From NCBI GenBank assembly GCA_977017645.1, contig OZ360227.1, positions 99,758,001-99,822,000 of the forward strand: a DNA stretch of 64,000 nt, in the 5' to 3' direction. Both the position numbers and the translations under genes were made by a program. Positions within the stretch are counted from its first letter, which is position 1. Every line of letters begins with the position of its first letter. Of this stretch, positions 5,763 through 61,704 are shown piece after piece. The stretch is from Torpedo marmorata. Its lineage: Eukaryota. The notes beneath the pieces were generated by a model. It saw only the letters and a program-made list of their open reading frames with translations. It did not search any database and was not told where the DNA came from.

Positions 5763-5763
5763 T

Positions 5764-5855
5764 AAGCCCTGGATGAACAATGGCCCACAGGAAAAAGAAT
5801 CTCAGGGTTGTATGTGATGTCATGTATGTACTCTGACAAAAAATTTGAACTTTGA
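5764..5855 (+). mobile_element. Short 3' tail fragment of Rex1 family B
   Basis: caggaaaaagaatctcagggttgtatgtgatgtcatgtatgtactctgacaa is identical to the tail split by the BEL element (25151-25181 + 36165-36190). Confidence 0.8.
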
Positions 5856-8800: not shown

Positions 8801-8948
8801 AAGACACTGCTTTACTTTTTGTGCACTATTGTTTATAATTTTTTATAGTAATGTCGTAAGATGGTAATAAGATGAATGTTAATTGCACTATGATGCTGCC
8901 GCAAAACACCGAATTTCATGACTTGTTCATGACAATAAATTCTGATAC
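5856..8948 (+). mobile_element. Near full-length Rex1/Babar LINE (family A), inactivated
   Basis: APE (LANVQSLENKLDEL, CFTETWL, SDHLAV), RT ([22 protein letters not shown]), C-terminal DPHHPGH; gacaataaa(ttctga) tail; 10-bp TSD tgaactttga (5846-5855 / 8949-8958); several stops and frameshifts. Confidence 0.92.
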
Positions 8949-11660: not shown

Positions 11661-11807
11661 CTTGTTCCATACTTCCACCACTCCCTGTGTGAAGTTCCCC
11701 CGAACGTTCCCCCTAAACTTCTCCCTTTCACCCTTAACCCATGTCCTCTGGTTTGCAACTCACCTAACCTCAGTGGAAAAAGCCTACTTGTGGTTACTCT
11801 ATCTATA

Positions 11808-12809
11808 CGCTGCCGGAGCCGCTGTAGCGGCTGCACTTCCGCTGGTGCAGACCCGCGGGGAGCGTGGGAGCGGAGATACAGCGCTCCCACGGGGTCCAGC
11901 CGCCCAGTCGACTGCCGTCGGCTCCGCACGGGATTTGAACGGCACGTTGAGGGAGCCGACGGTGGTTTTATTTGAGATCCCGCAACCGCGGGGTCTGCCC
12001 CCAAGATGGCAGCGCCTTTTAACCGGCAGCAGTGGGGAGGGGAGGGAGGGGAGGGTGAAAATATATCACATGTATTTTGATAATTTTATATTTTATAAAC
12101 ATGTATTATCGTGTGATTTAAAATTTTAAATAAAATATTTTTTTAAAAACCGGCAGCAGCCACGAGGGGCTGCAGACTCCGGAAGAAGCGGAGGACTGGA
12201 GCAGGGCACCAGAGGACGGAAATATCACCACCCCCCCCCCACCCCCGTCTGAGAAGGAGAGGTGGAGGAGACGACCCACGGGACAGTGACCACGGCGGTG
12301 GACCAGTGAGGAGCTCTGAGGTTGAAGGACCAGTGCATGCGGCGGGCTGCTGGCGACTCGAGGCGAGGAAACCGCTAAGGCTGTGGGCTGCTGGAGACTG
12401 CTGTCGGGGGATTCACGCCGGGCTGCAGACTGCTGGAGGCTGCCTCGAACTGGCTGGAGGAGTACCAGGTATCGGAACCGGGATGCGAGGGTTGCCGAGG
12501 GCGCCGAAGGGTTCCTGACCTTGTTGGAGGTTCGGATCTGGAGCTCGGGTTGCCGATGGTCTGGACTGGACTCTGTGTGGCTGCAGAGGCTGCGGAAGCA
12601 CTGGAGGCGAATCTACGGACACTCGGTGACTCTGGGGGGATTCTCTTTTGCTTCTCTTTCTCTGACTGTAAGGAATGTAAGAGGCGCTTAGGCAATTTCT
12701 GCCGGTGGCAAATCTGTTTGCCTTGCAGCAGGCAAAAAGAAATTTAATGGAATATGACACTGTCTTATTACTATGACAATAAATTGAATCTTGAAATTGA
12801 ATCTTGAAT
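11808..12809 (+). mobile_element. Non-autonomous GC-rich retroposon with Rex1-type tail, copy 1
   Basis: Highly similar to 43265-44079; ends gacaataaa(ttgaatc)n; no conserved protein. Confidence 0.85.
12033..12147 (+). mobile_element. 5'-truncated L1 family B 3' tail inserted in copy 1
   Basis: 12-bp TSD aaccggcagcag (12021-12032 / 12148-12159) after TTTT. Sequence matches the reverse complement of the L1 3' ends at 45050-45150 and 48118-48215. Confidence 0.85.
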
Positions 12810-25875: not shown

Positions 25876-27171
25876 TTTTTTTTTAAATATTTTATTTTCA
25901 TTTTTAACAAACAATAAAACAAAATACTTCAAAAACAGATATCACATTATATAGTAATACAATAAAAGTAACATATATAATTTTTAAAAAACAATTACCC
26001 CAAACCTCCCCCCCCCACAAAGAAAAAAACCCAAAACAAAACAAATGGTTGACAATGTTTATATAATTACTAATTTCAAATATATAAAAGAAAGAAAAAC
26101 TCCAAGGCTTCCCGGCAACAGGGCTTATCACGTGAAGGAAACCAAAACAAATTAATAGCAAATCTTCTTTGATTTAATTTATCCTGACCCCAAATAATCT
26201 AAATAAGGTTGCCAAATTTTATAAAAAATAACCTGTTTGTTTTTAATGTTATACGTAATTTTCTCCAATGGAATACAACTATTTATTTCTGAGGTCCATC
26301 TATCAATAGACAATGGGGAATCTGGCTTCCACGTAGTCATTAAACACTTTCTAGCCACACAAAAAGTTATTCCCAAAAATATAATTTGATATCTGGTTAG
26401 GGTGTCCTTAATAGTAGTAAAATTTCCCAAAAAGCATATCTCTGGATCTAAAATTAGAGTAACTCCAATAACTTTAGATGAGATGTCACAGAGATTATGC
26501 CAAAATTGTCTCAACCTACAGCACAACCATGTTGAATGTAAAAAAGAACCAACCTCCGTTCCACATCTCTGATAATTCTGGTTTAAATTTATGTAATTTC
26601 TGTGGAGTCAAATATAATTGATGAAGAAAATTATAGGAGACCAATCTATAACGTACATTTACAGTAATTAACATACTATTCTGACACAATTCTGACCATA
26701 ATTCTTCATCAATTACTATACCTAAGTCTGATTCCCACCTTATCCTGGACTTATTATGTCCCAATTTAGGCTCTTAATCTTGTAACAATAAATACATTCT
26801 CAAAATAAATTTATACGTATTTCCTTCTTGAAGTATTTTTTCCGCATCTGTCAATGAGGGTAGGACCATATCAGGTCCTAAAGTATTTCTAAGGTATGAA
26901 CGTAACTGAAAATAGCAAAAAAAAGTTCTATTAGGTAAATTATACCTCTCTTTCAGTCCTTCAAAAGACATAAGAAGTCTATTTTCATAACAGTCTTCTA
27001 TATATCTAATTCATTTACTATTCCAAATTTCCATTGCTCTATTATTAAGAGTCATAGGTATAAGTTCATTCTTTCTTAAGGATGTTTTAGGTGACACTAT
27101 CTTTTTAATTCCCAAACCTTCATGGGTATCCCCCCAAATCTTAAGCAAATGTTTTAAAATTGGATTATCAG
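25876..27171 (-). mobile_element. 5'-truncated L1-clade LINE (family D) in the BEL integrase region
   Basis: Poly-T end; NVRYRLVSYNFLHQLYLTPQKL, IPLEKITY, KIWQPYL; flanked by a ~51-bp duplication. Confidence 0.88.
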
Positions 27172-29660
27172 TTTGGCGTAGATTGGATAACATGTGGTTG
27201 CAACCACTATAGCCCACCTCTTCATGAATATGCCAAAGAATCAAATCAGAGATGTAAAGATCCTTGGCCAGTATGACAGGATGTTTCATCTCTTCTGGCA
27301 TTGGTGCTCTGCTCAGTCGCCCACCAACTCTTAATACACCATTCTCCATAATGGGGTTGAGTTTACAAATGTGGCTTGTACTTTTAATATTCATTCCCTT
27401 TCTTAGACTTGAAATTTCATGTGCAAATCTCTTCCTCTGGCAAAAGCAGATTATCTCCATCTCAGCATTAATCAATTCTTCAACTGTGAGACCTCTGTTT
27501 TCTTGAGTCTCAAGATTTTTTGTCTCCTTTTGTGGTAGATCTTTTTGATGGATGTTATCCGATTGAAATTGAGCAGGAACATCACTTGTTTGTTTTTCCT
27601 TTCTGCTACGATTCAGAAGCAGTCTTTTAAATCTGAGCATCCATGCTGTTGCCTTTTTCAAACAATTCCAGGATGAGAAGTAATGGATTAAGTGGGTAAC
27701 TGGATCCATTTGTTCAGACATTATCTGAACAGCATTTGCAGTCTTACTCCTGATTTCAGGGTCTTCTGGTAAAATTTATTTTGATTTATCAGGATTTTGA
27801 GGCCACTCCTTCTGAGGCTGTAGAAGAAGTTGAGGCCCGGGCACCCACATTTTTTTCTTTAGAAAAGACTTGACTTTCAAACCTCGGGAAGCCAGATCGG
27901 CAGGATTGTTAACTGCATTAACATATCTCCACTGTATTGGTAGTGAGACTTTATCAATTTCAGTGATGCTCTTAGCCACAAAAGTTCGAAACCTTGTGGT
28001 TTTATTATTGATGTATTTGAGCACAGAGGAGCTATCAGTCCAAAATATGGTGTCTGTTAGTTCTATCTGCAACTCTTTTTTCAACATTGTGTCCATTCTG
28101 CTCGCCATCGTAGCGGCTGTCAACTCCATTCGTGGGATAGTGGTTGGTTTCAATGGAGCCACTCTAGCCTTTCCCATTGCAAATCCACAATGTACCTGAT
28201 CCTGATTATCATGCAGTAATAGGTAACTAACAGTTCCGTAACCGTCTTCACATGCATCAGCAAAATGATGCAATTAAGCAGATGTCACAGTTCCAAAATT
28301 TGTGGGTTTAAAGCATCTGTCAATCTTTAAGTCTTCCAGCACACGTCCATTCTTGTCCAATGGATTCTGGTATCTCATCATCCCAACCAATCCTTTTCGT
28401 ACACAAATCTTGCAGGATCTTCTTGGCAGTCAGGACAACTGGTGCCAATATTCCTAAAGGATCATATATCAAACTGACTGTTGATAGAATCCCCCTTCTT
28501 GTGAGAGGTCGGTCCTTCAAAATAATTTTGAACTTAAAAACGTCACACTAAACACACCATTGTACACCTAACACCCACTCCACAGGAAGGTTGTCATGGT
28601 CTAAGTCCAAATTCTTCATTTCCTTTGCCCTCTCTCTTTCAGGTATGGCTGCCAATACATGACGACTGTTACTTATCCATTTGGTAAGTAGAAAGCCTCC
28701 TTTGGAACAGATCGCTCTCAACTCCTGATAAAGAGCTCTTGCTCTTCTTCTGTAGCTGCAGAAGTGAGACAGTCATCCACATAGAAGTTATTCCTGATGT
28801 TTATAGCTTGAGAGCTAAATTGTTCCATATTGTCCTCAGCACACTTCCTAAGGGCAAAATGCGCTGAACTTGGTGATGAAGTCGCTCCAAATAGATGTCC
28901 TGTCATTCTGTATTCCACCATGTTCTGACTGTAGTCTCCATCAGGCCACCAAAGGAATCGTAACAAGTCACGGTCTTCATTCGGTACTTTCACCTGGTAG
29001 AACATTGCTTCAATGTCTGCAGTGGTGACAACAGGTTCTTTACAGAATCTAGTTAAGACTCCTATCAACATACTGGTCAAATCTGGACCCTGTAAGAGTT
29101 GAGAATTTAGTGAAACTCCGAGAAAGGTTGCTCCACAGTCAAACACCACTTGAAGCTTTTCCTTTTGTGGTTGCAAAACCCCATGGTGTGGTAAGTACCA
29201 TTATTTACCATCACTACGTTCCAAGATATCATCTGGTACTTTCTCTGCATAACCTTTAAATATCATGTCAGACACGCAGAATGAAAGGAAGAATCTTTCT
29301 AGAATCTTCTCTTTAAATTCAGTGTACGTTGTTTGACAACGCTTCTATTATCAAGCATGCTTATTTCCCTTTTCTTTAAAGGTAATCCAATGCAATAATG
29401 GTCATTAACCAGCTTGGCAGATTTTAACACCGAATCCAAGAACTGCTGGTCTTCCCTTGAAGGTTCTTGGTCGTCCTTGAGGCACTCAAGAAAGTCAATC
29501 TTGAACTGCTGCTCCCTCAGCTCATCAAGTTTAACAATCGATATCTTGTTGATACTTATAGCTGTCTGGTTTTGAACCTCATTTTTTCCTCCTAATGGTC
29601 CATTAATCGTCCAACCAAGCATAGTTTTGACAGAGTAAGGTCCATCTCCCACACTCCTTA

Positions 29661-32600
29661 GAACATAAGAAACCGGCCCATCGAGGCTGCTCCACCATTC
29701 AATAAGATCATGGCTGATCTGATCAATGACCTAACTCCACCTACCTGCCCTTTCCCCATATCCCCTAATTCCTTTTTTATGTAAAAATCTATCCAACTGA
29801 ACCTTAAATATGTTCAATGAAGCAGCCTCAACCGCTTCCCCGGGTAGAGAATTCCAAAAACTCACCACTCTTTGGGAAAAACTGTTTATGCTCATCTCTG
29901 TCCTAAATCAACTCCCCCGAATGTTGAGGCTGTGTCCCTTAGTTTTGGTCTCAGCCGCCAGTGAAAAAAACCTTCCTACCTCTATCCTATCCATCCCCTT
30001 CATAATTCTATATGTTTCTATAAGATCTCCTCTCATTCTTCTGAACTCGAGCGAGTATAATCCCAGACGATTTAATCTTTCATCATAAGTCAACCCCTTC
30101 ATCTCAGGGATCAACCTAGTAAACCTCCTCTGGACTGCCTCCAAGGCCTGTATATCCTTCCTCAAATATGGAGACCAGAACTGCACACAGTACTCCAGGT
30201 GCGGTCTCACCAGTACCTTGTACAGTTGCAACATTACCTCCTTGCTCCTGAATTCATTTCCTCTAGCGATGAAGGCCAACATTCCATTTGCCTTCTTAAT
30301 AACCTGCTGCACCTGCAACCCAATTTTTTGCGATTCGTGCACAAGCACTCCCAAGTCCTTCTGCACAACAGCATGCTGCAGTTTTTCACCATTTAAATAA
30401 TACTCTGATCTTTTATTTTTCTTGCCAAAGTGGATAACCTCGCACATACTAACATTGTACTCCATTTGCCAGACCTTTGCCCACTCACCTAACTTAGCTA
30501 TATCCCTCTGCAGCCTCTCCACATCCTCAGTACAATTTGCTCTTTCACTCAATTTAGTATCATCCGCAAACTTGGCTACACCACATTTTGTCCCCTCCTC
30601 CAAATCATCAATGTAAATGATGAACAGTTGTGGGCCCAGCACCGACCCCTGCGGCACCCCACTTACCACTGTCTGCCAATCAGAAAAACACCCATTTATC
30701 CCGACTCTCTGCCTCCTGTCAGACAACCAATCCTCAATCCATGCCAATATACTTCCCTGGACTCCATTCACCTGTAACTTATTGATAAGTCTCTTGTGTG
30801 GCACCTTATCAAACGCTTTCTGGAAATCCAAATATACAACATCAACCTGTTCCCCTCTATCTACCGCACCCATTATGTCCTCAAAGAACTCTAACAAGTT
30901 TGTCAAACAAGATCTGCCCTTCCTAAACCCATGCTGCGTCTACCTGATTGAACCCTTTTGTTCTAAATGTCTCACTATTTCATCCTTAATGACAGCTTCA
31001 AGCATTTTCCCCAACTACAGACGTTAAGCTAATTTCCCGATAGTTCCCAGTCTTCTGCCTACATCCCTTCTTAAAAAGTGGCGTGACATTTGCTGTCTTC
31101 CAATCTGCCGGACCTGCCCAGAATCCAGAGAATTTTGGTATATGACCACCAATGCATCGACTATAACTTTTGCCATTTCCCTCAGAACCCTGGGATGCAT
31201 TTCATCAGGACAAGGAGATTTGTCCGGCTTTAGTCCCATTAGTTTGTTCATCACTATCTCCTTGGTAACAACTATTTTATCAAGGCCTTCACCAACATTC
31301 GCATCCCTATCTCCACTCTTTGGCATGCTGGACGTGTCTTCCACCGTGAAGACTGACACAAAATATTTGTTCAAGGCCTCGGCCATTTCCTCATTTTTCA
31401 ATATCAATTTCCCCTTCTCATCTTCTAAGGGTCCTATGTTAACTCTAGCCACCCTCTTCCGTTTTATATATTTATAAAAAATTTTGCTATCTGTTTTTAT
31501 ATTTTGTGCCAATTTACCTTCATAATCCTTTCTCCCCTTTCTTATTACCCGCTTTGTTATCCCTTGTTGTCTTTTAAAGTTTTCCCAATCTTCCAGTTTT
31601 ACACTACTCTTTGCAACTTTGTACACCTGAGCTTTTAATTTTATACTCTCCTTTATTTCCTTAGTTAACCACGGCTGACTCTTCCCTCTCTTGCTGCCCT
31701 TATTCTTAACTGGAATATATTTTTGTTGAGCATTGTGAAAAATCTCCGTGAAAATCTTCCACTGTTCCTCAACTGTTCTACCAACTAGCCTGTGCTCCCA
31801 GTCCACGCTGACCAATTCCTCCCTCATCCTGTGATAGTCTCCCCTGTTTAAGCATAATATATTAGTTTTAGATCTAACTATTTCCCCCTCCATCTGTATG
31901 AGAAATTCAATCATACTATGATCACTATTTCCAAGAGGGTCCCTAACTATTACATCATTTATTCTATCTATCTCATTGCACAATACTAGATCCAAAATAG
32001 CATTCACTCTTGTTGGTTCTTTAACATGCTTCTCAAGAAAGCTATCACGGATGCATTCTATGAAGTCTTCTTCCAGACTCCCGCGACCAACTTGATTTTC
32101 CCAATCTACGTGGTAGTTAAAATCCCCCACGACAACTGCCGTTCCATTCTTACATGCCTCACTTATCTCTCTGTTTATTGCCTGTGCCACTGTACTATTG
32201 TTATTTGGTGGGCGATAGACAACACCCACCAGTGATTTTTTTCCCTTTGTTATTCTTAATCTCCACCCAGGTGGACTCAACATTATGTTCCTTAGATCTT
32301 ATATCATCTCGCACTATTGCCTTGAACTCATCCTTGATTAAGAGCGCCACACCTCCTCCTTTACCATCCTGACTATCCTTTCGTACTACCTGATACCTTG
32401 AAAGTTTAATTCCCAATCATGGTCATCTTATAGCCATGTTTCTGTGATGGCCACTAAATCATATGCCTGGGTACCGATTTGCGCGTCAAGTTCACTAACC
32501 TTGTTTCTAGTACTGCGGGCATTCAGATAAAATGCCCTTATGCTCATTGACCTTTTAGAATCTAGTGACTTCTGTATCCTTTGTTTTTGATTTTGATTTT

Positions 32601-33208
32601 TCTGCCCTCTATTTCTCTTTGTCTTTTTCCTAACACTTTCTTTGGTCTCTGTACCACCTTCCTCATTTTTTCTGTGTAGGTTCCCATTCCCCTGCCCTAC
32701 TAGTTTAAACCTTCCCAAACAGCATGAGCAAAAGAACTCCCAAGTACATTTATCCCGCCTCTGCCCAGATGTAGACCATCTGGCCTGTATTGGTCCCAAT
32801 GCTTCAAGAAACTGAAACCTTCCCTCCAGCACCACTGTTCAAGCCACATATTCATTCTGACAATTCTGTTATTTGTATTCTCACTAGCTCGTGGTACTGG
32901 TAATAATCCTGAGATTATTACTTTTGAGGTCCTACTCCTTAATCTATTTCCTAGCTCCCTAAATTCAGCTTGTAGGAGCTCATCTCGCATTTTTCCTATA
33001 TCGTTGGTACCAATATGGACCATGACAGCTGGCTGTTCACCCTCCCCTTCCAGAATGTCCTGCAGCCGCTCCGAGACACCCTTGACCCTTGCACCCGGGA
33101 GGCAGCACACCATCCGGGAGTCCTTTTTGCGGCCGCATAAGCTCCTGTCTGTTCCTCTCACCATAGAGTCCCCAAAAACTATTGCTCTACCTGTCTTTTT
33201 CCTTCCCT
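29661..33208 (-). mobile_element. CR1 LINE (ORF1 SGNH esterase + ORF2 APE-RT) inserted in BEL
   Basis: VCCLPGARV, HIGTNDIG, DGLHL; YLNARS, AITETWL, SDHSMI; SGVPQGSVLGP, KFADDT; tcttatgttc tail. The BEL frame reads DMIR|SVGDGPY across the insertion, with ctta repeated. Confidence 0.93.
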
Positions 33209-35777
33209 CTTATCATATCTAGTGGTTCCAGAGCTTTTGGTACATCTGAACCAATCAGCAACTCTATCTCAGAGTTGATTTTGCGTAAACAAACGTTTTT
33301 CAAATGCGTCCACGGTTCAATGTCGTTTTGATGTGGGATGTTTCCTTTATGCACAGGCATAGTTTTCTGAGCATATACGCCTGGGAGTTCACAAAAATCT
33401 TTACTATCCAGTCCAGTGATCTCTAGGCCCAAAACAATGTTGGTTTCAATGATTTTAACTTGACCTATAGTTCTCAATAGAATTTTTGACCTTCTTCCTT
33501 GAAGATTAAGCTTATTCATTAGCCCCACAGTGCAAAATGACGCAGTGCTTCCTGGGTCAAGAAATACATAAGTATGCACTATTGCACTTCCTTTTTTGGC
33601 CTTGACTTGTACAGGCACTATTAAAAGTTTGCAGTTGTTCTCACCGGCCCCAGTAAGTCCATTTGTCTGTACCAAGGCTTCAGCACTGTTTTCATCTGCT
33701 TCTTTTCTTGCTGTTTGTTCCTTTTCCGTATTCTTCTTTTCTTGGAAGATATGTAGCATTTTGGGATGCACACAACTGTGCACACTTTTCCAAAGCATGC
33801 TTATCGTTACAGAACAAACATTTCTTCACAGCAGGCAAACTTTCCTTTTTCCTTTTTCTTAATTTCTTTATCCAGGGAGGTGCCAAATGTACTTTTTTTC
33901 AATTTTGTTTGAGGTGGAATCTTGAAACTTTTCACCTCTTTGCTCACCTTTGGAATATCCTTGATATCTCCAAATCCTGGTACAGTTGCAATCTGCACGT
34001 GCCATTCCAGGAAATCCATAATATCTTCAAAAGTAGAATTTTGTCTACATTTTATCTGAAGTTCGCAAACCCTTGCTCTCCACAAATCCCTCAGCCGGTA
34101 AGGCAACCTCAGTGTGTTGGTTAACATATTACGAAACATGTTAAGCTCACGCATGTTGTCAATATCTTCCATGGCATTACAACATCCTCTTAAAAAGAGA
34201 GCGTATGCTTGTAAAGCCTTTGTGTCATCCGATTTTATTGATGACCATGAAAGAGCCTTCTCTGCATAATCTGTCACAATTCTATGCCTGTTGCCAAAAT
34301 GCTCTTGCAGTAAAGCCCTTGCCTTCAGGAATCCCTTTTCTGGATCCATATGTAGGCAACTCCTTACAAGTTCCTTTGGCTGTCCCTCAGCATACTGTTC
34401 CAGATAATAAAGACGATCTCTGGCATTTTTATTCTTGCTTTCAATATTGTGTTCAAAAGATTTAATGAACGCTTGATACTGAAGTGGGTCTCCATCAAAA
34501 ATTTGAATCTCCTTCTTGAGCAGGGAATAGAGACCTTGTTGCTGAATTAATAAAGCAGTCATTTCATTTTGTTTTCCCATGATTGACAATATATTGCCCT
34601 GTTCATCGTTGCTTTGTCCACCCAGATTTCTGTTACCTGACGGGAGTGGCAAGTATTCTGCATCACTTGGGGTCATTATTGGGGTTTGAGATCTGGCACC
34701 ACCGTGCCTTAACCTGATTTGTTCGGGTCCATACATGTCTCGTAACCGTGCCACTGGCTCTACTTTGGTATTAAATATTTTATTTTTCTGTTGTCCTACC
34801 TCAAAACGTGACTCCAAAACGTTAGACGCTTTAGATAATTTACTTCAAACACCAGATAACACCAGAGCCTTCTAGTACCCTCGCCCTGGCCTGATTAACA
34901 GCAATTTTTGTATCCAGTTGCAGTTGATCCTTTTGCCTTTTTAGCTGCACTAGGCTTCTCCTTATCCACTCCTCCTGCTCTTCTAAGGCCAATTTATTTT
35001 GAAGCAATTCTTTTTCTGCTTCAAGAGCTGCCGCGTCAGTCCGAACCTTTAAATGTGTAGATATAGTACTTGAAATGCTGGAGCTTGCTCTAGAACTCCT
35101 CCTGCTTCCAGTATTTGACGGACTATCACCTGATAGTTTATCATTCTCTATTTCAGATGTCGCCTTAATATCTGACTTTGTCTCCACGCTGGATTGCCCA
35201 TCCTCCACACCACCATCTTGTGGCACACCTTCAAACAATACCAAGTGCTCTTAGATTCTGTTGATGTTTTTTGCAGTAATTCTGTGGGATTTGTATTCCC
35301 AGCAGCTGTAACCTTCTTTCTTTCTATTGCCTCTATCAGTCTTGCTTGAAGAGTAGTTTTGGCTCCACTTGAATCTAATCCCCGCCATTGCAATTCTTCT
35401 TTAAGTTCCTTGACCTTCATCTCCTCGACACGTAGCTTCTCAGGGGCAGCAGCTTCAGTGGCGGCTGCCATATTATCCTTCTCCATCCAGCCGACCTTTG
35501 CACTCAGGCATCAAACATGCACAACAATAACACAAAAACCAAAACAGTCCTCAAAGGACAAGCGGCAGTTTCTCCAAACTGCGTTCTAACTTGCAATAAA
35601 CACACAGAAGGAATCCTTCAGTAAGGCTTATCGCTTCTTCAATGGCCTTGATGATGCTGTTGACAATCGTACCTCCTTGAGTTCGAAATGCTCTAAACAG
35701 AGCCCACTCGATCCAGTCCAAATTCCAAATCAAATTTCCACTTTCTATTGTCTAAATTCCTTTTCTATTGACTTAAT

Positions 35778-42535: not shown

Positions 42536-42704
42536 CAAATGATAACATTCATGTAGGGCATAGTAGGAATCCGGAAAATGGAGGTTAATAGCATGGATAT
42601 GGTCGGCAGTCAGAATTTTTATCCAAGTTTAAAAATGTCACACACTGGAGGGAATGTATTTAAGGTGAAGTGGAGAGGGTAGGGGTGGGTGGGAGGGGAG
42701 TTTA

Positions 42705-43197
42705 GTCAAGTCAAGTCAAGTTTATTGTCATCTGATTGTACAAGTACAACCTGACAAAACAGCGTTTTCCTGTCCTCGGTGCAAAACATGCAGACACATG
42801 ACCAGACATAACACACATACAGACAAACAATACATTTCCAGGACAAGTATTTCATCTATACAAATAAATAAATATTGTTTTGTACATATGAAAGTCTCGG
42901 ATGGTTAGTGTAAGCAGTTCTTTTGGTCGAACAGCATTCTCATTGCCCGTGGGAAGAAGCTGTTCCTCAGTCTGGTGGTGCTGGCTCTGATACTCCTGTA
43001 TCTCTTCCCTGAGGGGAGCAGCTGAAAGATGCTGTGTGCAAGGTGGAAGGGGTCCTCAATGGTTTTTCGCGCCCTGTTTGGACAACGATACCGGTAGATC
43101 ACGTCGATGGGGGGAGGGAGACTCCAGTGATCTTCTCTGCCATTCTTATTGTCCTGTGGATTGACTTCCGATCCATTTCTCTGCAGCAACCGTACCT
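42705..43197 (-). mobile_element. 5'-truncated Rex1-type LINE with (gactt)n tail
   Basis: EDPFHLAHSIFQLLPSGKRYRSIRASTTRLRNSFFPRA; inserted in an old + strand CR1 3' end (42560-42700, 43198-43264). Confidence 0.85.
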
Positions 43198-43264: not shown

Positions 43265-44079
43265 TAATGGCGGTGCAGCCGGAGCCGCTGTAGCGGTAGC
43301 GCTGCCACTGGTGCGGACCCGCGGGGAGCGAGGGAGCAGAGATACAGCGCTCCCGCGGGGTCCAGCCGCCCAGTCGACTGTCATCGGTTCCGCACGGGCT
43401 TTGAACGGCCCATTGAGGGAGCCGATGGTGGTTTTATTTAAGATCCCGCGACCACGGGGTCTGCACCCAAGATGGCAGCGCCTTTTAACTGGCAGCAGCC
43501 ACGAAGGGCTGCAGATTCTGGGGAAGCGGAGGACTGGAGCAGGGCACCAGAGGACGGGAAGATCACCCCCCCCCGTCTGAGAAGGAGAAGCGGAGGAGAT
43601 GACCCACGGGACGGTGACCACGGCGGTGGACCAGTGAGGGGCTCTGAGGCTGAAGGACCAGTGCATGAGGTGGGCTGCTAGCGACTCGAGGCGAGGAACC
43701 CGCGGAGGCTGCGGACTGCTGGAGGCTGGCTCGAACTGGCTGGAGGAGTACCAGGTATCGGAACCGGGATGCGAGGGGGTGCCGAGGGCGACCTGACCGT
43801 GTTGGAGGTTCGGATCTGGAGCTCGGGTGGCCGATGGTTTGGACCAGACTCTGTGTGGCTGTGGAGGCTACGGAAGCACTGGAGGCGAATCTATGGACAC
43901 TCGATGACTCTGGGGGGACTCTCTTTTGCTTCTCTTTCTCTGACTGTAAGGAATGTTAGAGGCGCTTAGGCAATTTCTGCCGGTGGCGAATCTGTCTGCC
44001 TTGTAGCAGGCAAAAAGAAATTTCATAGAATATGACACTGTCTTATTACTATGACAATAAATTGAATCTTGAATCTTGA
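43265..44079 (+). mobile_element. Non-autonomous GC-rich retroposon, copy 2 (longest uninterrupted)
   Basis: Starts taatggcgg; hairpin head; caagatggcagc at 43468-43479; gacaataaa(ttgaatc)n tail. Confidence 0.87.
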
Positions 44080-44456: not shown

Positions 44457-45049
44457 TTTTTCAATATTTTTATTGACATTGAAATTCCACATCGAAAAAT
44501 ACAGAGTACATAAGAATACATGTTAAAAGTCAAAAAATTCATTACACTTAAATCATACAATTTCATCCAAGGTACTCTGCATTCTCAATCAAACAAATTA
44601 TACTATATTAATATTTTATTTTTAAAATAGAAGATCTAAACCCACTACCAAAAACAAAGCTGTTTGGCAAAAAGAGGAAAAAATAATTCCTTATCAGAGT
44701 AATAAATTACCTTATTAGTCAACACCTCTGCATTCATATCCAATCAAAGACTATGAAAATAATTCAAAAAGGGTCCCCACAGTGTTTGAAAATTTGAATT
44801 CAAATTGGAAATTGAGCATCTAATCTTCTCTAAATTTAAACGTGACATGACGTCTCATAGCCATTGAGCATGATTAGGTGGAGCAACATCCTTCCATCTG
44901 AGCAACACTACCCGCCTAGCCATAAGAGAAATAAAAGCTAATACATGCAAATCAGATGTCGTTAAAGTTATGCCACTCTCTCCAACAATCCCAAACAAGG
45001 CAGTTAAAGGATTAGGTTTAAAATTAACTAAAAAGTACAGAAAAAGTTT

Positions 45050-48000
45050 TTTTTAATTAAATATTTTATTTAAAATTTTTAAATCACAAAATACATAAAA
45101 TAAAATATGAAATTATCAAAATATTTGTGATACATTTTCACCCCACCCTCCCAACACCACTAATCTAATAAAAATAAAAATAGAAAATAAAAATAGAAAA
45201 AGAAGGAAAAAAAGAAAGAAAAAGATAGAGTAAGGAGAATGCCAATCTAAAAAAAAACCATACATCTATAAACTAATTCTATTATGGAGGTCAGGTATGC
45301 CAGTAGATCCGATACCCAGAGATCTTCAAATCCTTAAACCAACAACTTTCATACATGGGCTCCAAATTTTTAAGAAGAAATGATATTTGTTACGTAAATT
45401 ATAAGTAATTTTTTCAAGTGGTATACACGAACGAAGTTCTGCATGCCATCTTTCTAATCCTAAATCTAAATCAGATTTCCAAGTAATAGCAATACATTTC
45501 TTTGAAACAGCTAAAGCAATTCGCAAAAATTCTATTTGATACATGTTTAATTTCACCTTAATACTAAATTTTCTAATATCTCCGAACAAAAATATCATAG
45601 GATCCATTGGAAATGTAATCTTAAATACTTTATCTGAAAATTTTTTAACTTTCAACCAAAAATCATAAACTTTTGGACAAAACCATGTAGAATGTACAAA
45701 AGAACCTTCTTCTTTATTACATCTAAAACATAAACCTGATAATGTCAAATTAAATTTCTTTAGTTTTTTAGGTGTTAAATATAATTGATGAAAAAAATTA
45801 TATTGTACTAATCTATATCTAACATTAATAATCTTCGTCATACTTAATTTACATAATTCTTTCCAGTGATTCTCATCTATTGTTACATTCAAATCTAATT
45901 CCCATTTTAATCTTGATTTATGAATTCCTACTTTAGAAATTTTCCTCTGAAACAATTTATACATTTGAGAAATAAATTTATTGACATCTCCTTTAGTAAC
46001 TAATAATTCTAATTCATTCTGTCTTGGTAAAATCAAAGCATAACCTAATTTCTCAATCAGAAAAGCTCTAATTTGATAATAAGCAAAAAGTGTATTATCT
46101 AATATATTAAATTTATCTTTCATTCTTTGAAAAGTAATAAATTTCCCAGCTTCAAAACAATCATTTATTTTCTAAATTCCTTTTTGAAACCAAATTTTAA
46201 ATAATTGATTATTAATAGTAAATGGAATAAGTCAATTTTGATATAAAGGCATCCTTGAAGAAATCAATCCTTTTCCACCTATTTCCTTATCCGTCTTATT
46301 CCATATTTCTAACAAATGTTTAAGAATAGGAGAATTTTTCTTTCTTGTTGATATTAATTTAGAATCCCATTTATAAATAACTTCTTCTTTGGAATCTTCT
46401 CCTATATTATTTAATTCTATTTTAATCCAAGCAGAAGATTTAGTTGAATCAAAAAATTCATTAGCAAATTTTAATTGAGCTGCTTTATAATAATTTTGGA
46501 AATTAGGAAGTTGTAAACCACCCATTTCATAATTCCAAGTTAGTTTTTCCATACCTACTCTTGCTAACTTTCCTTTCCATAAAATTTTTCTAATAATTGA
46601 ATTTAAAACTTTAAAAAAATTTTGAGGAATTTCATAAGGAATTGATTGAAAAAGATATTGAATTCTTGGAAAAACATTCATTTTAATACAATTTACTCTT
46701 CCCATTAAAGTTATAGGTAAATCTTTCCAATTTTCTAAATCTTTTTTTATTTTCACAAATAATGGTAAATAATTTAATTTATATAAATTAGCCAATTTTG
46801 TGTCAACCCTTATTCCCAAATATTTAATTCCTTCCTTTGCCCATTTAAATTGTGTAATTTCTTTACATCCACTATAATCCCCTTGTGATAATGCCATAAT
46901 TTCACTTTTATCAGTATTAATTTTATATCAGGATATTTCCCCATATTCTCTCAATAACACAGACAATTGTACTAAAGATGTAGTAGATTTTGTCATATAT
47001 ATCAATACATCATCTGCAAACAAACTAATTTTATGTTCTTCCATTCCAACTTTAATACCAACTATTTTAGGATCTTTTCTAACTAATTCTGCCAAAGGTT
47101 CTATCGCCAAAATAAATAATGCTGGTGACAAAGGACATCCTTGTCTAGTAGATCGAGTCAAAGGAAATTTTGAAGAAATTTGTCCATTTGTAACTACTTT
47201 AGCAGATGGTTCTTTATATATAGTTTTAATCCAATTCATAAATGTATTTCCAAAACCAAATTTCTCCAATACCTTAAATAAAAAATTCCACTCTAATCTA
47301 TCAAAAGCCTTTTCGGCATCTAAAGTTAAAACTAATGGTAAATCTTCCTTCTTTTTATGTAGATTAATTAAATTAATTAATCTAGCTATATTATCTTTTG
47401 AATATCTATTTTTAATAAAACCAGCTTGATCTACATGAATTAAATCTGGTAAATAATTAGCCATTCTATTTGCTAACATTTTTGCCATTATTTTATAATC
47501 TACATTTAATAATGAAATAGGTCTATATGATTCAGTTTTCAATACATCTCTATCTTTTTTTGGTATAACTATAATTATTGCATTTAAGAAAGTATCTGGT
47601 AATGAGTGGGTTTCCGTAATTTGATTCAATACATCCATATATGGAGGTATTAATAAATCTTTAAACTCTTTGTAAAATTCTGATGGAAATCCATCTTCAC
47701 CTGGAGATTTACCACTCTTTAAAGAAGTAAGAACTTCATTAACTTCCCTCATTGAGAAAGGTAAATCTAAAGATTCTCTACTTCGAGTATTTAATTTAGG
47801 TAATATAATTTTAGATAAAAATCTAGTAATTTTAGAATCATCTTGATCAATCTGAGATTTATATAAATTCAAATAATAATCTTTAAAAGAATCATTTATT
47901 TCTCGAGGTTTATAAGTTATTTCTCTAGAGTTCTTTTTCCTTATATCATTTATAGTTCTAGAAGTTTGATCTTTTTTTAATTGCCATGCCAAAACTTTAT

Positions 48001-51000
48001 GAGCTCTTTCCCCTAACTCAGAGTATCTTTGTTTAGTTCTTTCAATTAATTTTTCCATTTTATATGTTTGTAATAAATTATAATGTAATTTCTTCCCAAT
48101 TAAATTGTTCCTTTTTTTAAAATATTTTATTTAAAATTTTTTAAATCACAAAATACATAAAATAAAATATAAAATTATCAAAGTGTTTGTGATACATTTT
48201 CACCCCCCTCCCCTCCCCAACCCTCCCAACCCCACTAATCTAATAAAAATAAAAATATAAAATAAAAATAGAAATAGAAAAAGAAGAAGAAAATAGAAAA
48301 AAAAGATAGAGTAAGGAGAATGCCAATCTATAAACTAATTCTATTATGGAGGTCAAGTATGCCAATAGATCCGATATCCAGAGATCTTCAAATCCTTAAA
48401 CCAACAACTTTCATACATGGGCTCCAAATTTTTAAGAAGAAATGATATTTGTTACGTAAATTATAAGTAATTTTTTCAAGTGGTATACACGAGCGAAGTT
48501 CTGTCTGCCATCTTTCTAATCCTAAATCTAAATCAGATTTCCAAGTAATAGCAATACATTTCTTTGAAACAGCTAAAGCAATTCTCAAAAATTCTATTTG
48601 ATACATATTTAATTTCATCTTAATACTAAATTTTCTAATATCTCCAAACAAAAATATCATAGGATCCATTGGAAATGTAATCTTAAATACTTTATCTAAA
48701 AAAATGTTAACTTTCAACCAAAAATCATAAACTTTTGGACAAAACCATGTAGAATGTACAAAAGACCCTTCCTCTTTATTACATCTAAAACATAAACTTA
48801 ATAATGTCGGATTAAATTTCTTTAATTTTTTAGGTGTTAAATATAATTGATGAAAAAAATTGTATTGTACTAATCTATATCTAACATTAATAATCTTCGT
48901 CATACTTAATTTACATAATTCTTTCCAATGATTTTCATCTATTCTTACATTCAAATCTAATTCCCATTTTAATCTTGATTTATGAATTCCTACTTTAGGC
49001 ATTTTCCTCTGAAACAATTTATACATTTGAGAAATAAATTTATTGACATCTCCTTTAGTAACTAATAATTCTAATTCATTCTGTCTTGGTAAAATCAAAG
49101 CATAACCTAATTTCTCAATCAGAAAAGCTCTAATTTGATAATAAGCAAAAAGTGTATTATCTAATATATTAAATTTATCTTTCATTCTTTGAAAAGTAAT
49201 AAATTTCCCAGCTTCAAAACAATCATTAATCTTCTTAATTCCTTTTTGAAACCAAATTTTAAATAATTGTTTATTAGTAGTAAATGGAATAAGTCCATTT
49301 TCATATAAAGGCATCCTTGAAGAAATCAATCCTTTTACTCCTATTTCCTTATTCGTCTTATTCCATATTTCTAACAAATGTTTAAAAATAGGCAAATTTT
49401 TCTTTCTTGTTGATATTAATTTAGAATCCCATTTATAAATAACTTCTTCTTTGGAATCTTCTCCTATATTATTTAATTCTATTTTAATCCAAGCAGAAGA
49501 TTTAGTTGAATAAAAAAAATTCATTAACAAATTTTAGTTGAGCTGCTTTATAATAATTTTGGAAATTAGGAAGTTGTAAACCACCCATTTCATAATTCCA
49601 AGTTAGTTTTTCCATACCTACTCTTGCTAACTTTCCTTTCCATAAAAATTTTCTAATAATTGAATTTAAATCTTTAAAAAAATTTTGAGTAATTTCATAA
49701 GGAATTGATTGAAAAAGATATTGAATTCTTGGAAAAACATTCATTTTAATACAATTTACTCTTCCCATTAAAGTTATAGGTAAATCTTTCCAATTTTCTA
49801 AATCTTTTTTTATTTTCACAAATAATGGTAAATAATTTAATTTATATAAATTAGCCAATTTTGTGTCAACCCTTATTCCCAAATATTTAATTCCTTCCTT
49901 TGCCCATTTAAATTGTGTAATTTCTTTACATCTACTATAATTCCTTTGTGATAATGCCATAATTTCACTTTTATCAGAATTAATTTTATATCCAGATATT
50001 TCCCCATATTCTCTCAATAACACAAACAATTGTACTAAGGATGTAGTAGATTTTGTCATATATATCAATACATCATCTGAATACTCAAAGTAGAGAATCT
50101 TTAGATTTACCTTTCTCAATGAGGGAAGTTAATGAAATTCTTACTTCTCTAAAGAGTGGTAAATCTCCAGGTGAAGATGGATTTCCATCAGAATTTTACA
50201 AAGAGTTTAAAGATTTATTGATACCTTTATATATGGATGTATTGAATCAAATTACGGAAACTCACTCATTACCAGATACTTTCTTAAATGCAATAATTAC
50301 AGTTATACCAAAGAAAGATAGAGATGTATTGAAAACTGAATCATATAGACCTATTTCATTATTAAATGTAGATTATAAGATAATGGAAAAATTTTTAGCA
50401 AATAGAATGGCTAATTATTTACCAGATTTAATTCATGTAGATCAAGCTGGTTTTATTAAAAATAGATATTCAAAAGATAATATAGCTAGATTGATTAGTT
50501 TAATTAATTTACATAAAAAGAAGGAAGATTTACCATTAGTTTTAACTTTAGACGCCGAAAAGGCTTTTGATAGATTAGAGTGGAATTTTTTATTTAAGGT
50601 ATTGGAGAAATTTGGTTTTGGAAATACATTTATTAATTGGATTAAAACTATATATAAAGAACCATCTGCTAAAGTAGTTACAAATGGATAAATATCTTCA
50701 AAATTTCCTTTGACTCGATCTACTAGACAAGGATGTCCTTTGTCACCAGCATTATTTATTTTGGCGATATAACCTTTGGAAGAATTAGTTAGAAAAGATC
50801 CTAAAATAGTTGGTATTAAAGTTGGAATGGAAGAACATAAAATTGTTCCTTTTTTGAACTGATCTGTTTTTTTGTAAATCTTTTTCCAAACACTCAATCT
50901 CCTTCTCTAAATTTTGTACTTTCCTAAGATAATCTTTCTTAATTTTTGCTGAATAACTTGTTATTTGACCTCTTAAATATGCTTTTAAAGCTTCCCAAAT

Positions 51001-55700: not shown

Positions 55701-58700
55701 CTTTGCAAGATGATAGTAAAATAGACAGATAATTATCGCAGATAAATTTACCAAGATTAAGTATGTAAGAACAGTTAGAATTGAGCACTCAGCTTACACA
55801 GGAAGAAGTGAAAGAAGCAATGAGTTCATTACAAAGTAATAAAGCTCCAGGAGAGGATGGCTTCCCACCTGAGTTTTATAAAGAGTTTAAAGACCTATTA
55901 ATTCCTATCTTTATGGAAACATTAAAACAGGCATCAGTAACTCATACTCTCCCGCAATCTTTTTCAACAGCAATAATTACTGTAATACCAAAGAAAGATA
56001 GAGATCCATTGAAACCCTCGTCCTATAGACTATTTCATTATTAAATGCAGATTACAAAATTGTAGCCAAAATCTTGGTTAATAGAATGACTAAATTGTTA
56101 CCTAAATTAGTAAATATGGATCAGACAGGTTTTATAAAAAAAAGACAAGCGGCTGATAATGTAGCTCAAAAAAGGAAAGTATTAAGTGTTGCAGTGGCTT
56201 TAGATGTGGAAAAAGTGTTTGATAGATTGGAGTGGGACTTTCTGTTTAAAGTGTTGGAGAAATTTGGATTTGGACAGACCTTCATAAACTGGATTAAAGC
56301 ATTATACAATGGTCCAAAAGCTAAAGTAGTGACTAATGGACAAATATTAACTCCGTTCTATTTGACAAGGTCTAGTAGACAAGGATGCCCACTGTCACCA
56401 TCTTTATTTATATTAGGTATAGAACCACTTGCAGAAGCAATTAGAAGAGATTTGGAAATTAAGGGATTTAGGGTTGGCCAAGAAGAACATAAAATTAGTT
56501 TATTCGCGGATGATGTTTTAATATACTTGACAGAACCTGAAATCTCTTTATGAAGATTACATCTTAAATTGGAAGAATATGGAGAGATATCAGGTTATAA
56601 GATAAATTGGGATAAAAGTGAAATTATGCCCCTTATAGAAGGTGATTATACTTTATGTAAAATAAATACTCAGTTTAAATGTCCACATAATGGGATTAAA
56701 ATATCTAGGAATTCAAACAGATATTAATCTAAAAAATCTATATAAATGGAATTATTTACCACTACTTAAAAAGGTTAAAGAAGATTTGGAAAAATTGATG
56801 AGTCTACCCATAACATTGATAGGAAGAGTTAATTGTATTAAAATGAACATATTACCAAGAATACAATATTTATATCAAACCATACCTATTTTATTACCAC
56901 AAGGGTTTTTTCAAGAGTTAAGTAAATGTGTGAGAAAATTTCTTTGGAGAGGTAAAATGTCAAGAGTTTCTATAGAATGCTTAACATGGAAATATGAGCC
57001 AGGAGGCTTGCAGCTCCCTAGTTTTAAGAATTATTACCGAGCGGCTCAAATGAGATTTCTTACTTCTTTTTTTGAAAGGGAGGAAAAACCTGCATGGGTT
57101 AAAATAGAGTTAGGAAAAATAGAAGAGAGAGTAGCAGAAGAATTTATATATAAATTGAACTCAAAATTATTAGTAGGAGTTAAGGAAGCGCCATTATTAA
57201 AACACTTGATTAATGTTTGGAACAAGATTAATGAAAAAATAGGGATAAAAGGGGATATATCACCCAAAATGCCCTTGACTCAGAATAATCTTATACTTTT
57301 TACAAGAGATAATCAATTTTTAAATATATGGTTCCAGAAAGGAATTAAGAAGATAGAAGATTGTTATGAAAGGGGTCAATTGATGTAATTTGCACAGTTA
57401 AGAAATAAATACAGAATAACGAACAATACTCTTTTTTGTTATTTTCAATTAGGAGGATATTTAAGGGAAAAACTAGGATTAGACATGTCGTTACAAAATT
57501 GTAGTGAAGTGGAAACTCTTATTAGAAAAGGAAATACTAAAAAATTTGCTTCTATAATGTACTCTTTGTTACAAAGAGGGACCCTTAAACAAGGAGTTCA
57601 TAAATCTAGACAGAGGTGGGAACAAGATCTGAATGTGATAATTGATGAACAAAGACGGTCAGATTTATGTCGAGATAGCATGACCAACACTATTAATGTA
57701 AGATATAGATTAGTTCAGTATAATGTTTTACATCAGTTATATCTTACACCACAAAAATTGAATAAAATGAAATCAGAATTGTCAAATCAGTGTTTTAGAT
57801 GTGGTGAAGATGTGGGAACTTTCTTGCATTCTACTTGGTTATGCTCTAAGGTAAGACCCTTTTGGGTCAAACTAGGGAATTTGTTAAAACAAATCACAGG
57901 AGTTACACTTCCACAAAACCCCGATTTATTTTTGTTTGGAAATGTGGAAGGAACGCGGCGCTGCCGGAGCCGCTGTAGTGGCAGCGCTGCCGCTGGAGCG
58001 GACCCACGGGGAGTGAGGGAGCAGAGATGCAGTGCTCCCGTGGGGTCCAACCGCCCAGTCGACTGCCATCGGTTCCACACGGGCTTTGAATAGCCCGTTA
58101 AAGGAGCCGACGGTGGTTTTATTTAAGATCCCGTGACCGCGGGGTCTGCACCCAAGATGGCAGCGCCTTTTAACTTGAATCTTGAACTAGACCAAAATTG
58201 AAATTATCAACATATCAATTGAAATTTGTTAAAATTGCTCTAGCGGTAGAGAGGAAGTGTATAGCAGTAACCTGGAAATCAGACATAAATTTAGGTATGG
58301 AAAGATGGAATACAGAGATACAGTGTTGTATTCCCTTGGAAAAAATAACATACAACATGAGAAATAAATATGGGATTTTCTTGCAAATTTGGTGTCCATA
58401 TATCCAGACATTAGGTATAAATATGTAAAGATGTTCTTCCACACCTTAGGCCCTATGCTAACTCCCTCAAAACTAAACTGATAGAAACACTGTGGAAAAT
58501 TTGTGTCAGACTGTGAATCTCCGGGCAATCCACATAATTGTTTTTCATAAGTAATATTATATTACTTTCTTTTTTTATTTTTCCTTCTTTCTTTTTGGTA
58601 GATATTAGGAGGGGGAGGGAAGGTAAGGGGAGGGAGTGGGTTGAGGGTGGGTTTAGAAATATTAAGTAATAATTTTAATTTGAAATGTTGGAAAAGTTGT

Positions 58701-60632: not shown

Positions 60633-61704
60633 ATTCAACACGATCATACCTCAGTAACTGATAGGGAAGTTGAGCGGGCTGGGCCTAAACAACACCCTCT
60701 GTAATTGGATTCTAGACTTCCTGATGGGAAGACCTCAGGCAGTCCGGATTGGAAACAGCACTTCTAAGGTCATTACATTGAGCACGGGGGCTCCCCAGGG
60801 CTGTGCGCTTAGTCTATTGCTGTTCACTCTGCTGACTCATGACTGTGCAGCAAAACACAGCTCGAATCACATCATCAAGTTCGCTGATGATATGACTGTG
60901 GTGGGCCTTATCAGCAAGAACGATGAGTCAGCATACAGAGACGAGGTGCAGTCGCTAATGGAATGGTGCGGAGCGAACAACCTGCATCTGAATGTAAATA
61001 AAACTAAAGAGTTGGTTGTCGACTTCAGGAGGGCCCGGGGGGATCATTCTCCATTGACCATGGACGGCTCTACCGTTGAGGTCGTAAAGAGTACCAAGTT
61101 TCTTGGAGTGCACTTGGCAGAGAGTCTCACCTGGTCCCTTCACCAGTTCCATAGTCAAGAAAGTCCAGCAGCATCTTTACTTCCTGCGAAGGCTGAGGGA
61201 AGTTCATCTACCACCCTCTATCCTTACTACATTCTACAGGGGATGTATTGAGAGTATTCTGAGCAATTGCATCACCGCTTGGTTTGGAAACTGTACCATC
61301 TCGGACCGAAAGACCCTGCAGAGGATAGTGGGGTCAGTGGAGAAAATTATTGGTGTCTCTCTTCCCACCATGATGGACATCTACAACACACGATGCATGA
61401 AGAAGGCTAATAACATTGTGAAGGACTTCTCACCCCCTTTTTGCAAACTTTTTTCACTTTTGCCATCTGGGAGGAGGTACTGAAGCACTCAGGCCCGTAC
61501 GTCCAGATTGTGCAACAGTTTTTTCCCCCAAGCCATCAGGCTCCTCAATTTTTAGATATATATGTGTATTAGCATGTTATAGTTTTTTTTATTGTATTAT
61601 GATATTTATGTACATCTGCCCATGGTCCTGGAGAAACGCTATCTCGTCTTACTGTGTATATGGTAATGAACGACAAATAAAGGTGACTTGACTTGACTTG
61701 ACTT
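60633..61704 (+). mobile_element. 5'-truncated Rex1-type LINE with (gactt)n tail
   Basis: [32 protein letters not shown]. Confidence 0.9.

What the first reader, a model, noticed from the sequence alone, without database searches (positions are those of the whole stretch)
43265..44079. Non-autonomous retroposon family with a multi-hairpin GC-rich head and Rex1-type tail
Seen: three copies (11808-12809, 43265-44079, 57955-58183). The ~210-nt head has consecutive inverted repeats: ccgct/agcgg; ggacccgcggggagcg...cgctcccgcggggtcc; rtcggytcc...acgggc-tttgaa-gcccrt...ggagccgay; agatcccgcg/crcggggtct. A YY1-like CAAGATGGC follows. I see no tRNA, 5S or 7SL homology and no ORF. Copy 3 shows a paired change cccAcggg/cccgTggg, though CpG decay could explain it. 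Inference: a Pol II-driven bipartite element mobilised by Rex1, or one headed by an unknown structured RNA or ribozyme.
Basis: partly seen in the sequence, partly recalled or inferred. Interest (0 to 1): 0.7.

Follow-up and report, generated by a model that had tools for sequence, protein, structure and literature searches.

The report
Gene-less Rex1-tailed retroposon, hairpin head
This is one copy of a very abundant, 845-base, protein-free jumping element that starts with the same short motif as this genome's Rex1-type retrotransposons and ends in a tail shared with 5S- and tRNA-headed short repeats, so it likely borrows the Rex1 copying enzyme; its predicted head hairpins are conserved, but nothing points to a ribozyme.

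Summary
The family is real: about 845 bp, no conserved ORF, 17,714 exact tail matches, roughly 10^5 copies, three age classes. Of 30 tail-selected copies, 20 reach the fixed 5' start and 10 are 5'-truncated; there is no TSD. The start motif AARATGGCG is also the first sequence of coding Rex1-type LINEs (250 hits, control 0), but the homology stops there. The ~120-nt two-hairpin tail is shared with a 5S-headed and a tRNA-headed SINE and resembles one Rex1 family's tail. No coding LINE carrying this tail was found. Hairpin H3 shows two fixed compensatory changes between subfamilies. Rfam, Pol III boxes and ribozyme cores are negative. Verdict: likely a Pol II-transcribed, Rex1-mobilised non-autonomous retroposon, a new variant of a known kind. 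This scan noted the same family earlier elsewhere in this genome (e1-9536809, e1-8649479) and similar ones in other genomes. Repbase and Dfam could not be checked.

The parts
43265..44079 (+). Copy 2, near full-length member of the youngest subfamily S1
43265..43275 (+). 5'-terminal YY1-like motif (AATGGCG), shared with the first bases of coding Rex1-type LINEs
   Evidence: the YY1 label rests on the GCCAT core in PMC11602158 and recall
43269..43306 (+). Hairpin H1, 13-bp stem invariant in three subfamily masters
43315..43364 (+). Hairpin H2; outer 6-bp stem conserved, inner register shifted by indels between subfamilies
43377..43432 (+). Hairpin H3, the best supported; two fixed compensatory changes between subfamilies
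43431..43441 (+). T-rich linker with a T4 run (longer in the oldest subfamily)
43441..43463 (+). Hairpin H4; weak, not formed in the oldest master
43468..43476 (+). Second YY1-like motif (CAAGATGGC)
43477..43945 (+). Purine/GC-rich body with degenerate ~40-nt internal repeats; no ORF shared by the subfamilies
43946..44061 (+). Tail module: two predicted stem-loops ending at GACAATAAA; shared with 5S- and tRNA-headed SINEs
44062..44079 (+). Terminal tandem repeat (TTGAATC)n
11807..12809 (+). Copy 1, slightly 5'-truncated
12033..12147 (+). Secondary insert in copy 1: 3' fragment of an L1-like LINE with a 12-nt target duplication
   Evidence: (match to 45050-45152)
57955..58187 (+). Copy 3: head plus terminal repeat only, a one-off internal deletion, sitting inside an L1-like ORF2

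Best explanation
[quoted passage not shown] Shown: high copy number, a fixed 5' start, 5' truncation with an intact 3' end, a terminal tandem repeat, no TSD, no conserved ORF, three age classes, a start motif identical to that of coding Rex1-type LINEs, and a tail shared with a 5S SINE and a tRNA SINE. Inferred: Pol II starts at the motif; the RT binds the tail by structure and short motifs (GAATTTCA...TGACAATAA) rather than by exact sequence, primes on the target through the terminal repeat, and often stops early. The head hairpins, H3 above all, were kept in the source copies and likely serve as 5' leader or RNP elements of the element's own RNA, not as a catalyst. The head works like a LINE 5' UTR; whether it descends from one is open.
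For: Copies. Truncation pattern, 20 of 30 full 5' end and 10 of 30 truncated. No TSD in 63 copies against shuffled pairs. Motif followed by a Rex1-type endonuclease motif: 250 hits, control 0; in 30 loci read, the upstream flanks are unrelated except in two pairs; 6 of 20 refetched LINEs ran ~3.1 kb from motif to a normal tail. Tail against the family-B LINE tail, terminal motif excluded: S1 z 8.8 (0/1000), S3 z 3.8, tRNA SINE z 5.6, 5S SINE z 3.3; CR1 and L1 ends z up to 1.5. Tail against the SINE tails: z 8-27; their heads pass Rfam gathering scores for 5S (46.0 and 43.6 bits) and tRNA (44.6 bits). T4+ runs at ~167, 218 and 698 and no B box in the head. Structure: 13 of 41 variable columns fall in 100 paired columns of 203 (p 0.009); fixed double changes A-U to C-G and A-U to G-C in H3.
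Against: No coding LINE family with this tail was found: 14 of 14, 30 of 114 and 30 of 43 pattern hits read were nested or chimeric, apart from one old copy without element sequence, and none appeared among 243 tail hits in 1.9 Mb. The S2 tail is no closer to any LINE tail than chance (z 0.5 or less against five families). Head-to-LINE homology beyond the motif is inconsistent, and the LINE 5' regions are not strongly folded (z +2.1 to -2.2). RNAalifold on 42 copies chose a different, long-range fold that scores as well on the same measures. The structure was derived from these same sequences. Two of four mutation simulations were not significant (40/300 and 38/300). The clade name Rex1 is recalled: the tools gave only RVT_1 + PF09004 and unnamed fish homologues.
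Confidence: 0.7

Rival explanations
1. A strict SIDE: the element is an internally deleted copy of one particular Rex1 LINE, now extinct or rare, whose 5' UTR was the hairpin head and whose 3' UTR was the tail.
For: It has LINE-like ends at both termini. This is how Persaeus and RIME arose (PMC6740152). The parent may have too few copies for the searches used.
Against: Zero hits for the second head motif followed by an endonuclease motif within 400 nt. No consistent homology to 11 LINE 5' regions. No LINE with the tail. The same tail sits behind 5S and tRNA heads, so it moves as a module.
Confidence: 0.3
2. The head is a self-cleaving ribozyme or a captured, unknown small structured RNA that defines the 5' end.
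For: Strong sense-strand folding, two compensatory changes, and a T-run after H3 that could end a ~170-nt RNA.
Against: No Rfam match in copy 2 better than E 6.5 or in the heads of 10 loci. No HDV-like core and no hammerhead core in any master (descriptors recalled). The 5' ends sit at the LINE start motif with variable A runs. The head-plus-repeat form occurs once.
Confidence: 0.07
3. The hairpins are by-products: GC-rich inverted repeats perfected by template switching in quasi-palindromes, with no function as RNA.
For: Only two double changes; H4 is absent in the oldest master and H2 shifts register; an alternative fold fits the copies equally well; mismatches are repaired over time, as palindrome correction would give.
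Against: Sense folds beat antisense in all three masters. Nine stem positions use G-U, which pairs only on the sense strand, against two A-C. H3 has pair probability 0.79-1.0 in all masters and the alternative fold 0.0.
Confidence: 0.3
4. It is mobilised by a LINE of another clade (L2, CR1, L1), or it is a Pol III SINE with a decayed head.
For: No exact Rex1 partner was found, and the S2 tail matches no LINE tail. Bona fide Pol III SINEs carry the same tail.
Against: No similarity to the window's CR1 or L1 ends; no poly(A) and no TSD, whereas the L1-like insert in copy 1 has a 12-nt duplication; internal T4+ runs and no B box in the head.
Confidence: 0.1

Closest known systems
BuceSINE and ManaSINE2, beside ManaSINE1 (tRNA head) and GymnSINE (5S head), on AviRTE (Suh et al. 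2016, PMC4844689; passages and Fig. 1 legend seen)
   Same: A GC-rich head without Pol III origin on a LINE-type tail that also carries tRNA and 5S heads.
   Different: There the tail is a demonstrated bipartite RTE 5'+3' UTR of a known LINE. Here the tail is Rex1-type, no exact partner was found, all three heads coexist in one genome, the element is ~845 nt, and it starts with the LINE's own YY1-like motif.
SIDEs / ORF-less bipartite non-autonomous LINEs: Persaeus (PMC6740152, passages seen); RTE, Ingi, Vingi and R2 derivatives (Kojima 2018, PMC5786205, abstract and passages seen)
   Same: No ORF, no Pol III promoter, LINE-like 5' start and 3' tail, presumed Pol II transcription.
   Different: Those keep 71-98% identity to the partner's 5' UTR (Persaeus); here only ~10 nt are shared. 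The word Rex1 does not occur in either main text.
SINE2-5_NV / Rex1-24_NV of Nematostella (Table 1 of PMC3747384, passage seen)
   Same: A non-autonomous element with a Rex1 tail.
   Different: tRNA head, Pol III. It matches the tRNA-headed sister SINE here, not this element.
YY1-dependent L1 5' UTR promoters (PMC11602158, passages seen)
   Same: YY1 core near the 5' end; two motifs ~200 nt apart recall mouse Tf monomers.
   Different: The two units here are not significantly homologous (28-85 of 500 shuffles reach the score); the element is non-coding and has no poly(A).

Membership tests
Non-autonomous non-LTR retroposon | Interspersed, many copies, fixed ends | tested here: met
Non-autonomous non-LTR retroposon | 5' truncation with intact 3' end and terminal repeat | tested here: met
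   10 of 30 truncated; 29 of 30 reach the terminal repeat
Non-autonomous non-LTR retroposon | No conserved coding frame | tested here: met
   longest sense ATG ORF 178, 55 and 61 aa, in different frames, in the three consensus sequences
SINE (strict: SINE1/2/3) | Head from tRNA, 5S or 7SL with Pol III boxes | tested here: not met
   the sister SINEs do pass
SIDE / bipartite LINE derivative | 5' part homologous to the partner LINE's 5' UTR | tested here: not met
   only the ~10-nt start motif is shared
SIDE / bipartite LINE derivative | 3' part homologous to a partner LINE's 3' end | tested here: inconclusive
   S1 z 8.8, S3 z 3.8, S2 z 0.5 against family B; no exact partner
SIDE / bipartite LINE derivative | Tail module itself a fusion of LINE 5' and 3' ends (lead from e1-8649479) | tested here: inconclusive
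   profile of 12 LINE 5' ends: one 5S SINE copy 0/300 shuffles, S3 5/300, no hit at the tail for S1, S2 or two other SINE copies
SIDE / bipartite LINE derivative | Pol II transcription from an internal promoter | not testable with these tools
   indirect only; no run on record as RNA
Rex1/Babar clade (partner LINEs) | AP endonuclease + RT, conserved 3' UTR, terminal oligonucleotide repeat (PMC6274825) | tested here: met
   single ~3.1-kb unit, RVT_1 + PF09004, homologues with PF03372
Rex1/Babar clade (partner LINEs) | RT phylogeny groups with named Rex1 elements | not tested
   no named reference sequence was on hand; the label is recalled
HDV-like or hammerhead ribozyme | Catalytic core motifs and nested pseudoknot | tested here: not met
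   (descriptors recalled)
HDV-like or hammerhead ribozyme | Self-cleavage in vitro | not testable with these tools
   needs a bench assay

The most novel reading that the evidence does not exclude
Rex1-type LINEs of this lineage all start at a YY1-type initiator, and their RT reads a portable two-hairpin tail by shape. This let one ~120-nt tail, no longer carried by any coding LINE, spread under three kinds of promoter at once (5S, tRNA and a Pol II head). The Pol II version became a 10^5-copy 'Pol II SINE' whose 5' leader is under selection for RNA structure.
Probability: 0.3. Interest if true: 0.65.

Novelty: new variant of a known kind. Interest (0 to 1): 0.42.

Why it matters
ORF-less, Pol II-type LINE passengers are described as rare and, in the two papers read on them, are not listed for Rex1. 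Here one fills on the order of 1.5% of a 6.2-Gb genome. Three heads on one tail in a single genome give a ready test of how promoter type affects retroposon success, and of what a Rex1 RT recognises. The two motifs per full-length copy also scatter well over 10^4 candidate YY1/CpG-island promoters through the genome. The kind of system is known, and repeat databases may already hold an unnamed consensus.

Tried and rejected
Partner search by patterns: the hits were Rex1-type LINEs nested in the element or truncated elements nested in LINE tails; in 11 of 30 loci the element's front part lay on the far side of the LINE. These patterns need one coding motif and a gap of at most 400 nt, so a partner with a different C-terminus would be missed. 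Head upstream of an endonuclease motif: 0 hits. Head as a duplicated promoter monomer: not significant. Head against LINE 5' regions: a few z of 4-4.7 among 198 comparisons, not consistent across subfamilies. The first try at family-B 5' ends found mostly truncated copies and the script failed; one full-length copy was seen. Head-only subfamily: 1 copy. TSDs: none above control. A G three bases before the ATG in 25 of 49 S1 copies could be a reverse-transcribed cap or a templated base; not resolved. Expression: no RNA holder listed; contigs from 5 of the 8 listed runs, 4 coded organisms, cover the element but cannot show strand, start or level. RSg-1 as a Rex1-clade precedent (lead from e1-9556596): one search and passages of PMC3747384 list RSg-1 with OS-SINE1 but showed no clade; unresolved. 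Ten literature searches showed no description of this family; subscription journals, Repbase, Dfam, SINEBase entries and supplements were not seen and may hold it.

Full report
Observation. The three copies are at the stated places. The window lies in a 6.2-Gb assembly rich in CR1-like, L1-like and Rex1-type LINE frames (family labels recalled). The closest named homologues of the Rex1-type RT are fish proteins. Earlier notes of this scan call the host a ray; I did not test that.

Family anatomy. Thirty loci found with the head align over about 845 nt with sharp ends: a start at (A)ATGGCGGCG and an end at GACAATAAA followed by (TTGAATC)n. An exact 31-mer of the tail occurs 17,714 times and an exact 19-mer of the start 10,723 times, reversed controls 0. 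In 760 kb of evenly chosen sequence there were 33 hits; two are one element and eight carry the SINE version of the tail, leaving 24, of which 12 are S1-like. That extrapolates to roughly 1-2 x 10^5 copies, with wide sampling error. Of 30 copies chosen by the tail alone, 20 reach the 5' start (some with small internal deletions) and 10 are 5'-truncated; 29 reach the terminal repeat. In 63 copies with both ends located, TSD lengths match shuffled pairs. Copy 3 interrupts an L1-like frame with at most a 4-nt overlap. The 130 heads collected fall into three age classes: S1 (60 heads, 94.9% to master), S2 (34, 90.8%) and S3 (36, 87.6%); these were gathered by targeted searches, so the counts are not abundances. 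No sense ORF is shared by the three.

The 5' start. A pattern joining AARATGGCGSC to a Rex1-type endonuclease motif 150-400 nt downstream gave 250 hits, control 0. In the 30 loci read, the flank upstream of the motif was unrelated among copies except in two pairs, so the motif is the first sequence of these LINEs, in several families. Six of 20 refetched copies ran about 3.1 kb from motif to a normal tail; the rest were interrupted, rearranged or not resolved. The element starts with the same motif and has a second copy at about nt 205. It contains the reverse complement of the GCCAT core that drives mouse L1 Tf promoters (PMC11602158, passages). Beyond about 10 nt, the head shows no consistent similarity to 11 LINE 5' regions, no head motif precedes an endonuclease motif within 400 nt, and the two motif-led units are not significantly related. 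T4+ runs at about 167, 218 and 698 and the lack of a B box in the head argue against Pol III.

The tail. The last ~120 nt form two predicted stem-loops before GACAATAA. The same module, 72-80% identical to the older subfamilies, follows a 5S rRNA-derived head (46.0 and 43.6 bits, gathering 38) and a tRNA-derived head (44.6 bits, gathering 29); an exact 45-mer of the 5S head occurs 2,985 times. I found this before reading the scan's earlier notes, which report it too. Against coding LINE tails, with the terminal motif excluded, S1 resembles family B (z 8.8, 0/1000), S3 weakly (z 3.8), the SINEs moderately (z 3.3 and 5.6), and S2 not at all; CR1 and L1 ends score at chance. Three pattern searches for a coding LINE ending in this tail gave 14, 114 and 43 hits. 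All 14, then 30 and 30, were read. They are nested or chimeric, apart from one old LINE copy with no element sequence. A profile scan of 1.9 Mb found 243 tails and no LINE family owning one. The partner is therefore inferred, not identified. The idea that the tail's front is a LINE 5' end got weak, mixed support.

The head structure. The masters fold at z -6.1, -8.6 and -5.7 on the sense strand and -4.2, -5.8 and -3.9 on the antisense strand. The conserved elements are a 13-bp 5' stem (H1), the outer stem of H2, a long H3 and a weak H4. Of 150 cells (50 pairs, three masters), 145 pair. Thirteen of 41 variable columns fall in the 100 paired columns of 203 (p 0.009). H3 carries two fixed double changes: A-U in S3 to C-G in S2 and S1 (transversions), and A-U in S3 and S2 to G-C in S1 (a CpG gain in the youngest class). 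Random placement of the same substitutions reached the observed stability in 0/300 and 0/300 trials for two comparisons, but 40/300 and 38/300 for the other two. Against this reading: RNAalifold on 42 copies chose a long-range fold with 94.5% paired cells and covariation 0.220, against 90.5% and 0.185 for the local hairpins; both beat their shuffles, which ignore relatedness. That fold has no fixed double change, and two of its helices had pair probability 0.0 in each master, while H3 had 0.79-1.0; H1 had only 0.38 in S1 and H4 0.04 in S3.

Ribozyme or small RNA. Rfam gave only chance matches on copy 2 and, in 10 loci, one 5S match outside the head. No HDV-like or hammerhead core was found (motifs recalled). 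The head-plus-repeat junction of copy 3 is unique.

Mechanism. Most likely Pol II starts at the first motif, as the LINEs are inferred to do. The ~850-nt RNA is bound at its tail by a Rex1-type RT and copied into new sites, often incompletely and without TSD. Copy number, ends, motif sharing and tail sharing are shown; polymerase, YY1 binding, partner identity and hairpin function are inferred.

Comparison and novelty. It works like a SIDE or like the GC-rich-headed BuceSINE and ManaSINE2 (PMC4844689, passages). It fails strict SINE membership (no Pol III head) and strict SIDE membership (no 5' UTR homology). Kojima 2018 lists RTE, Ingi, Vingi and R2 as sources of ORF-less bipartite elements (PMC5786205, abstract and passages); Wang 2019 adds CR1 (PMC6740152, passages). 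A Rex1-tailed tRNA SINE is known from Nematostella (PMC3747384, table passage). I also saw passages of PMC7245038 and PMC6274825; other papers only as listings. Ten searches showed no description of this family, but Repbase, Dfam, subscription journals and supplements were not seen. This scan has noted the family before in this genome and look-alikes in other genomes; those notes are not independent support. Verdict: real, new variant of a known kind, interest 0.42.

Noticed in passing
L331:7314-7555 (-), L333:23-262, L098:7530-7770, L095:5250-5460 (-), L329:4330-4565: 5S rRNA-headed SINE of ~245 nt sharing the element's tail and ending in an ACCTTT-type repeat; an exact 45-mer occurs 2,985 times.
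   Followed up: partly
L344:566-771 (-); L395: tRNA-headed SINE (anticodon loop reads UGU) with the same tail.
   Followed up: partly
window 5762-8951 (+), 22975-25100 (+), 42700-43197 (-), 60658-61480 (+); L295-L324: Several Rex1-type LINE families with different 3' repeats; the full-length copies seen all start at AARATGGCG.
   Followed up: yes
L131, L133, L142, L146-L172: Rex1-type LINEs nested in the element often join it at short matches to their own terminal repeat, suggesting microhomology-guided priming; the sample is biased by the search pattern.
   Followed up: partly
window 12033-12147: 115-bp 3' fragment of an L1-like LINE inserted in copy 1 with a 12-nt target duplication.
   Followed up: partly
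L208 (upstream of the match): An S3-type copy in which a 42-nt body unit has expanded into a long minisatellite.
   Followed up: no
window ~27000-35500 (-): Broken frames that look like a BEL/Pao-type LTR retrotransposon (label recalled), interrupted by a CR1-like LINE. Observed only.
   Followed up: no
window 45048-50844: Young L1-like LINE in duplicated and inverted pieces, 95-97% identical.
   Followed up: no
window 43431-43470 and S2/S3 masters: The AT-rich linker lies about 25-35 nt before the second YY1-like motif, a TATA-like spacing; none of the 30 tail-selected copies starts at that motif.
   Followed up: partly
L323 / L365: A Rex1-type 5' end (single, internally deleted copy) with mildly raised similarity to the element in most comparisons (z up to 4.3); its tail was not found.
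   Followed up: partly
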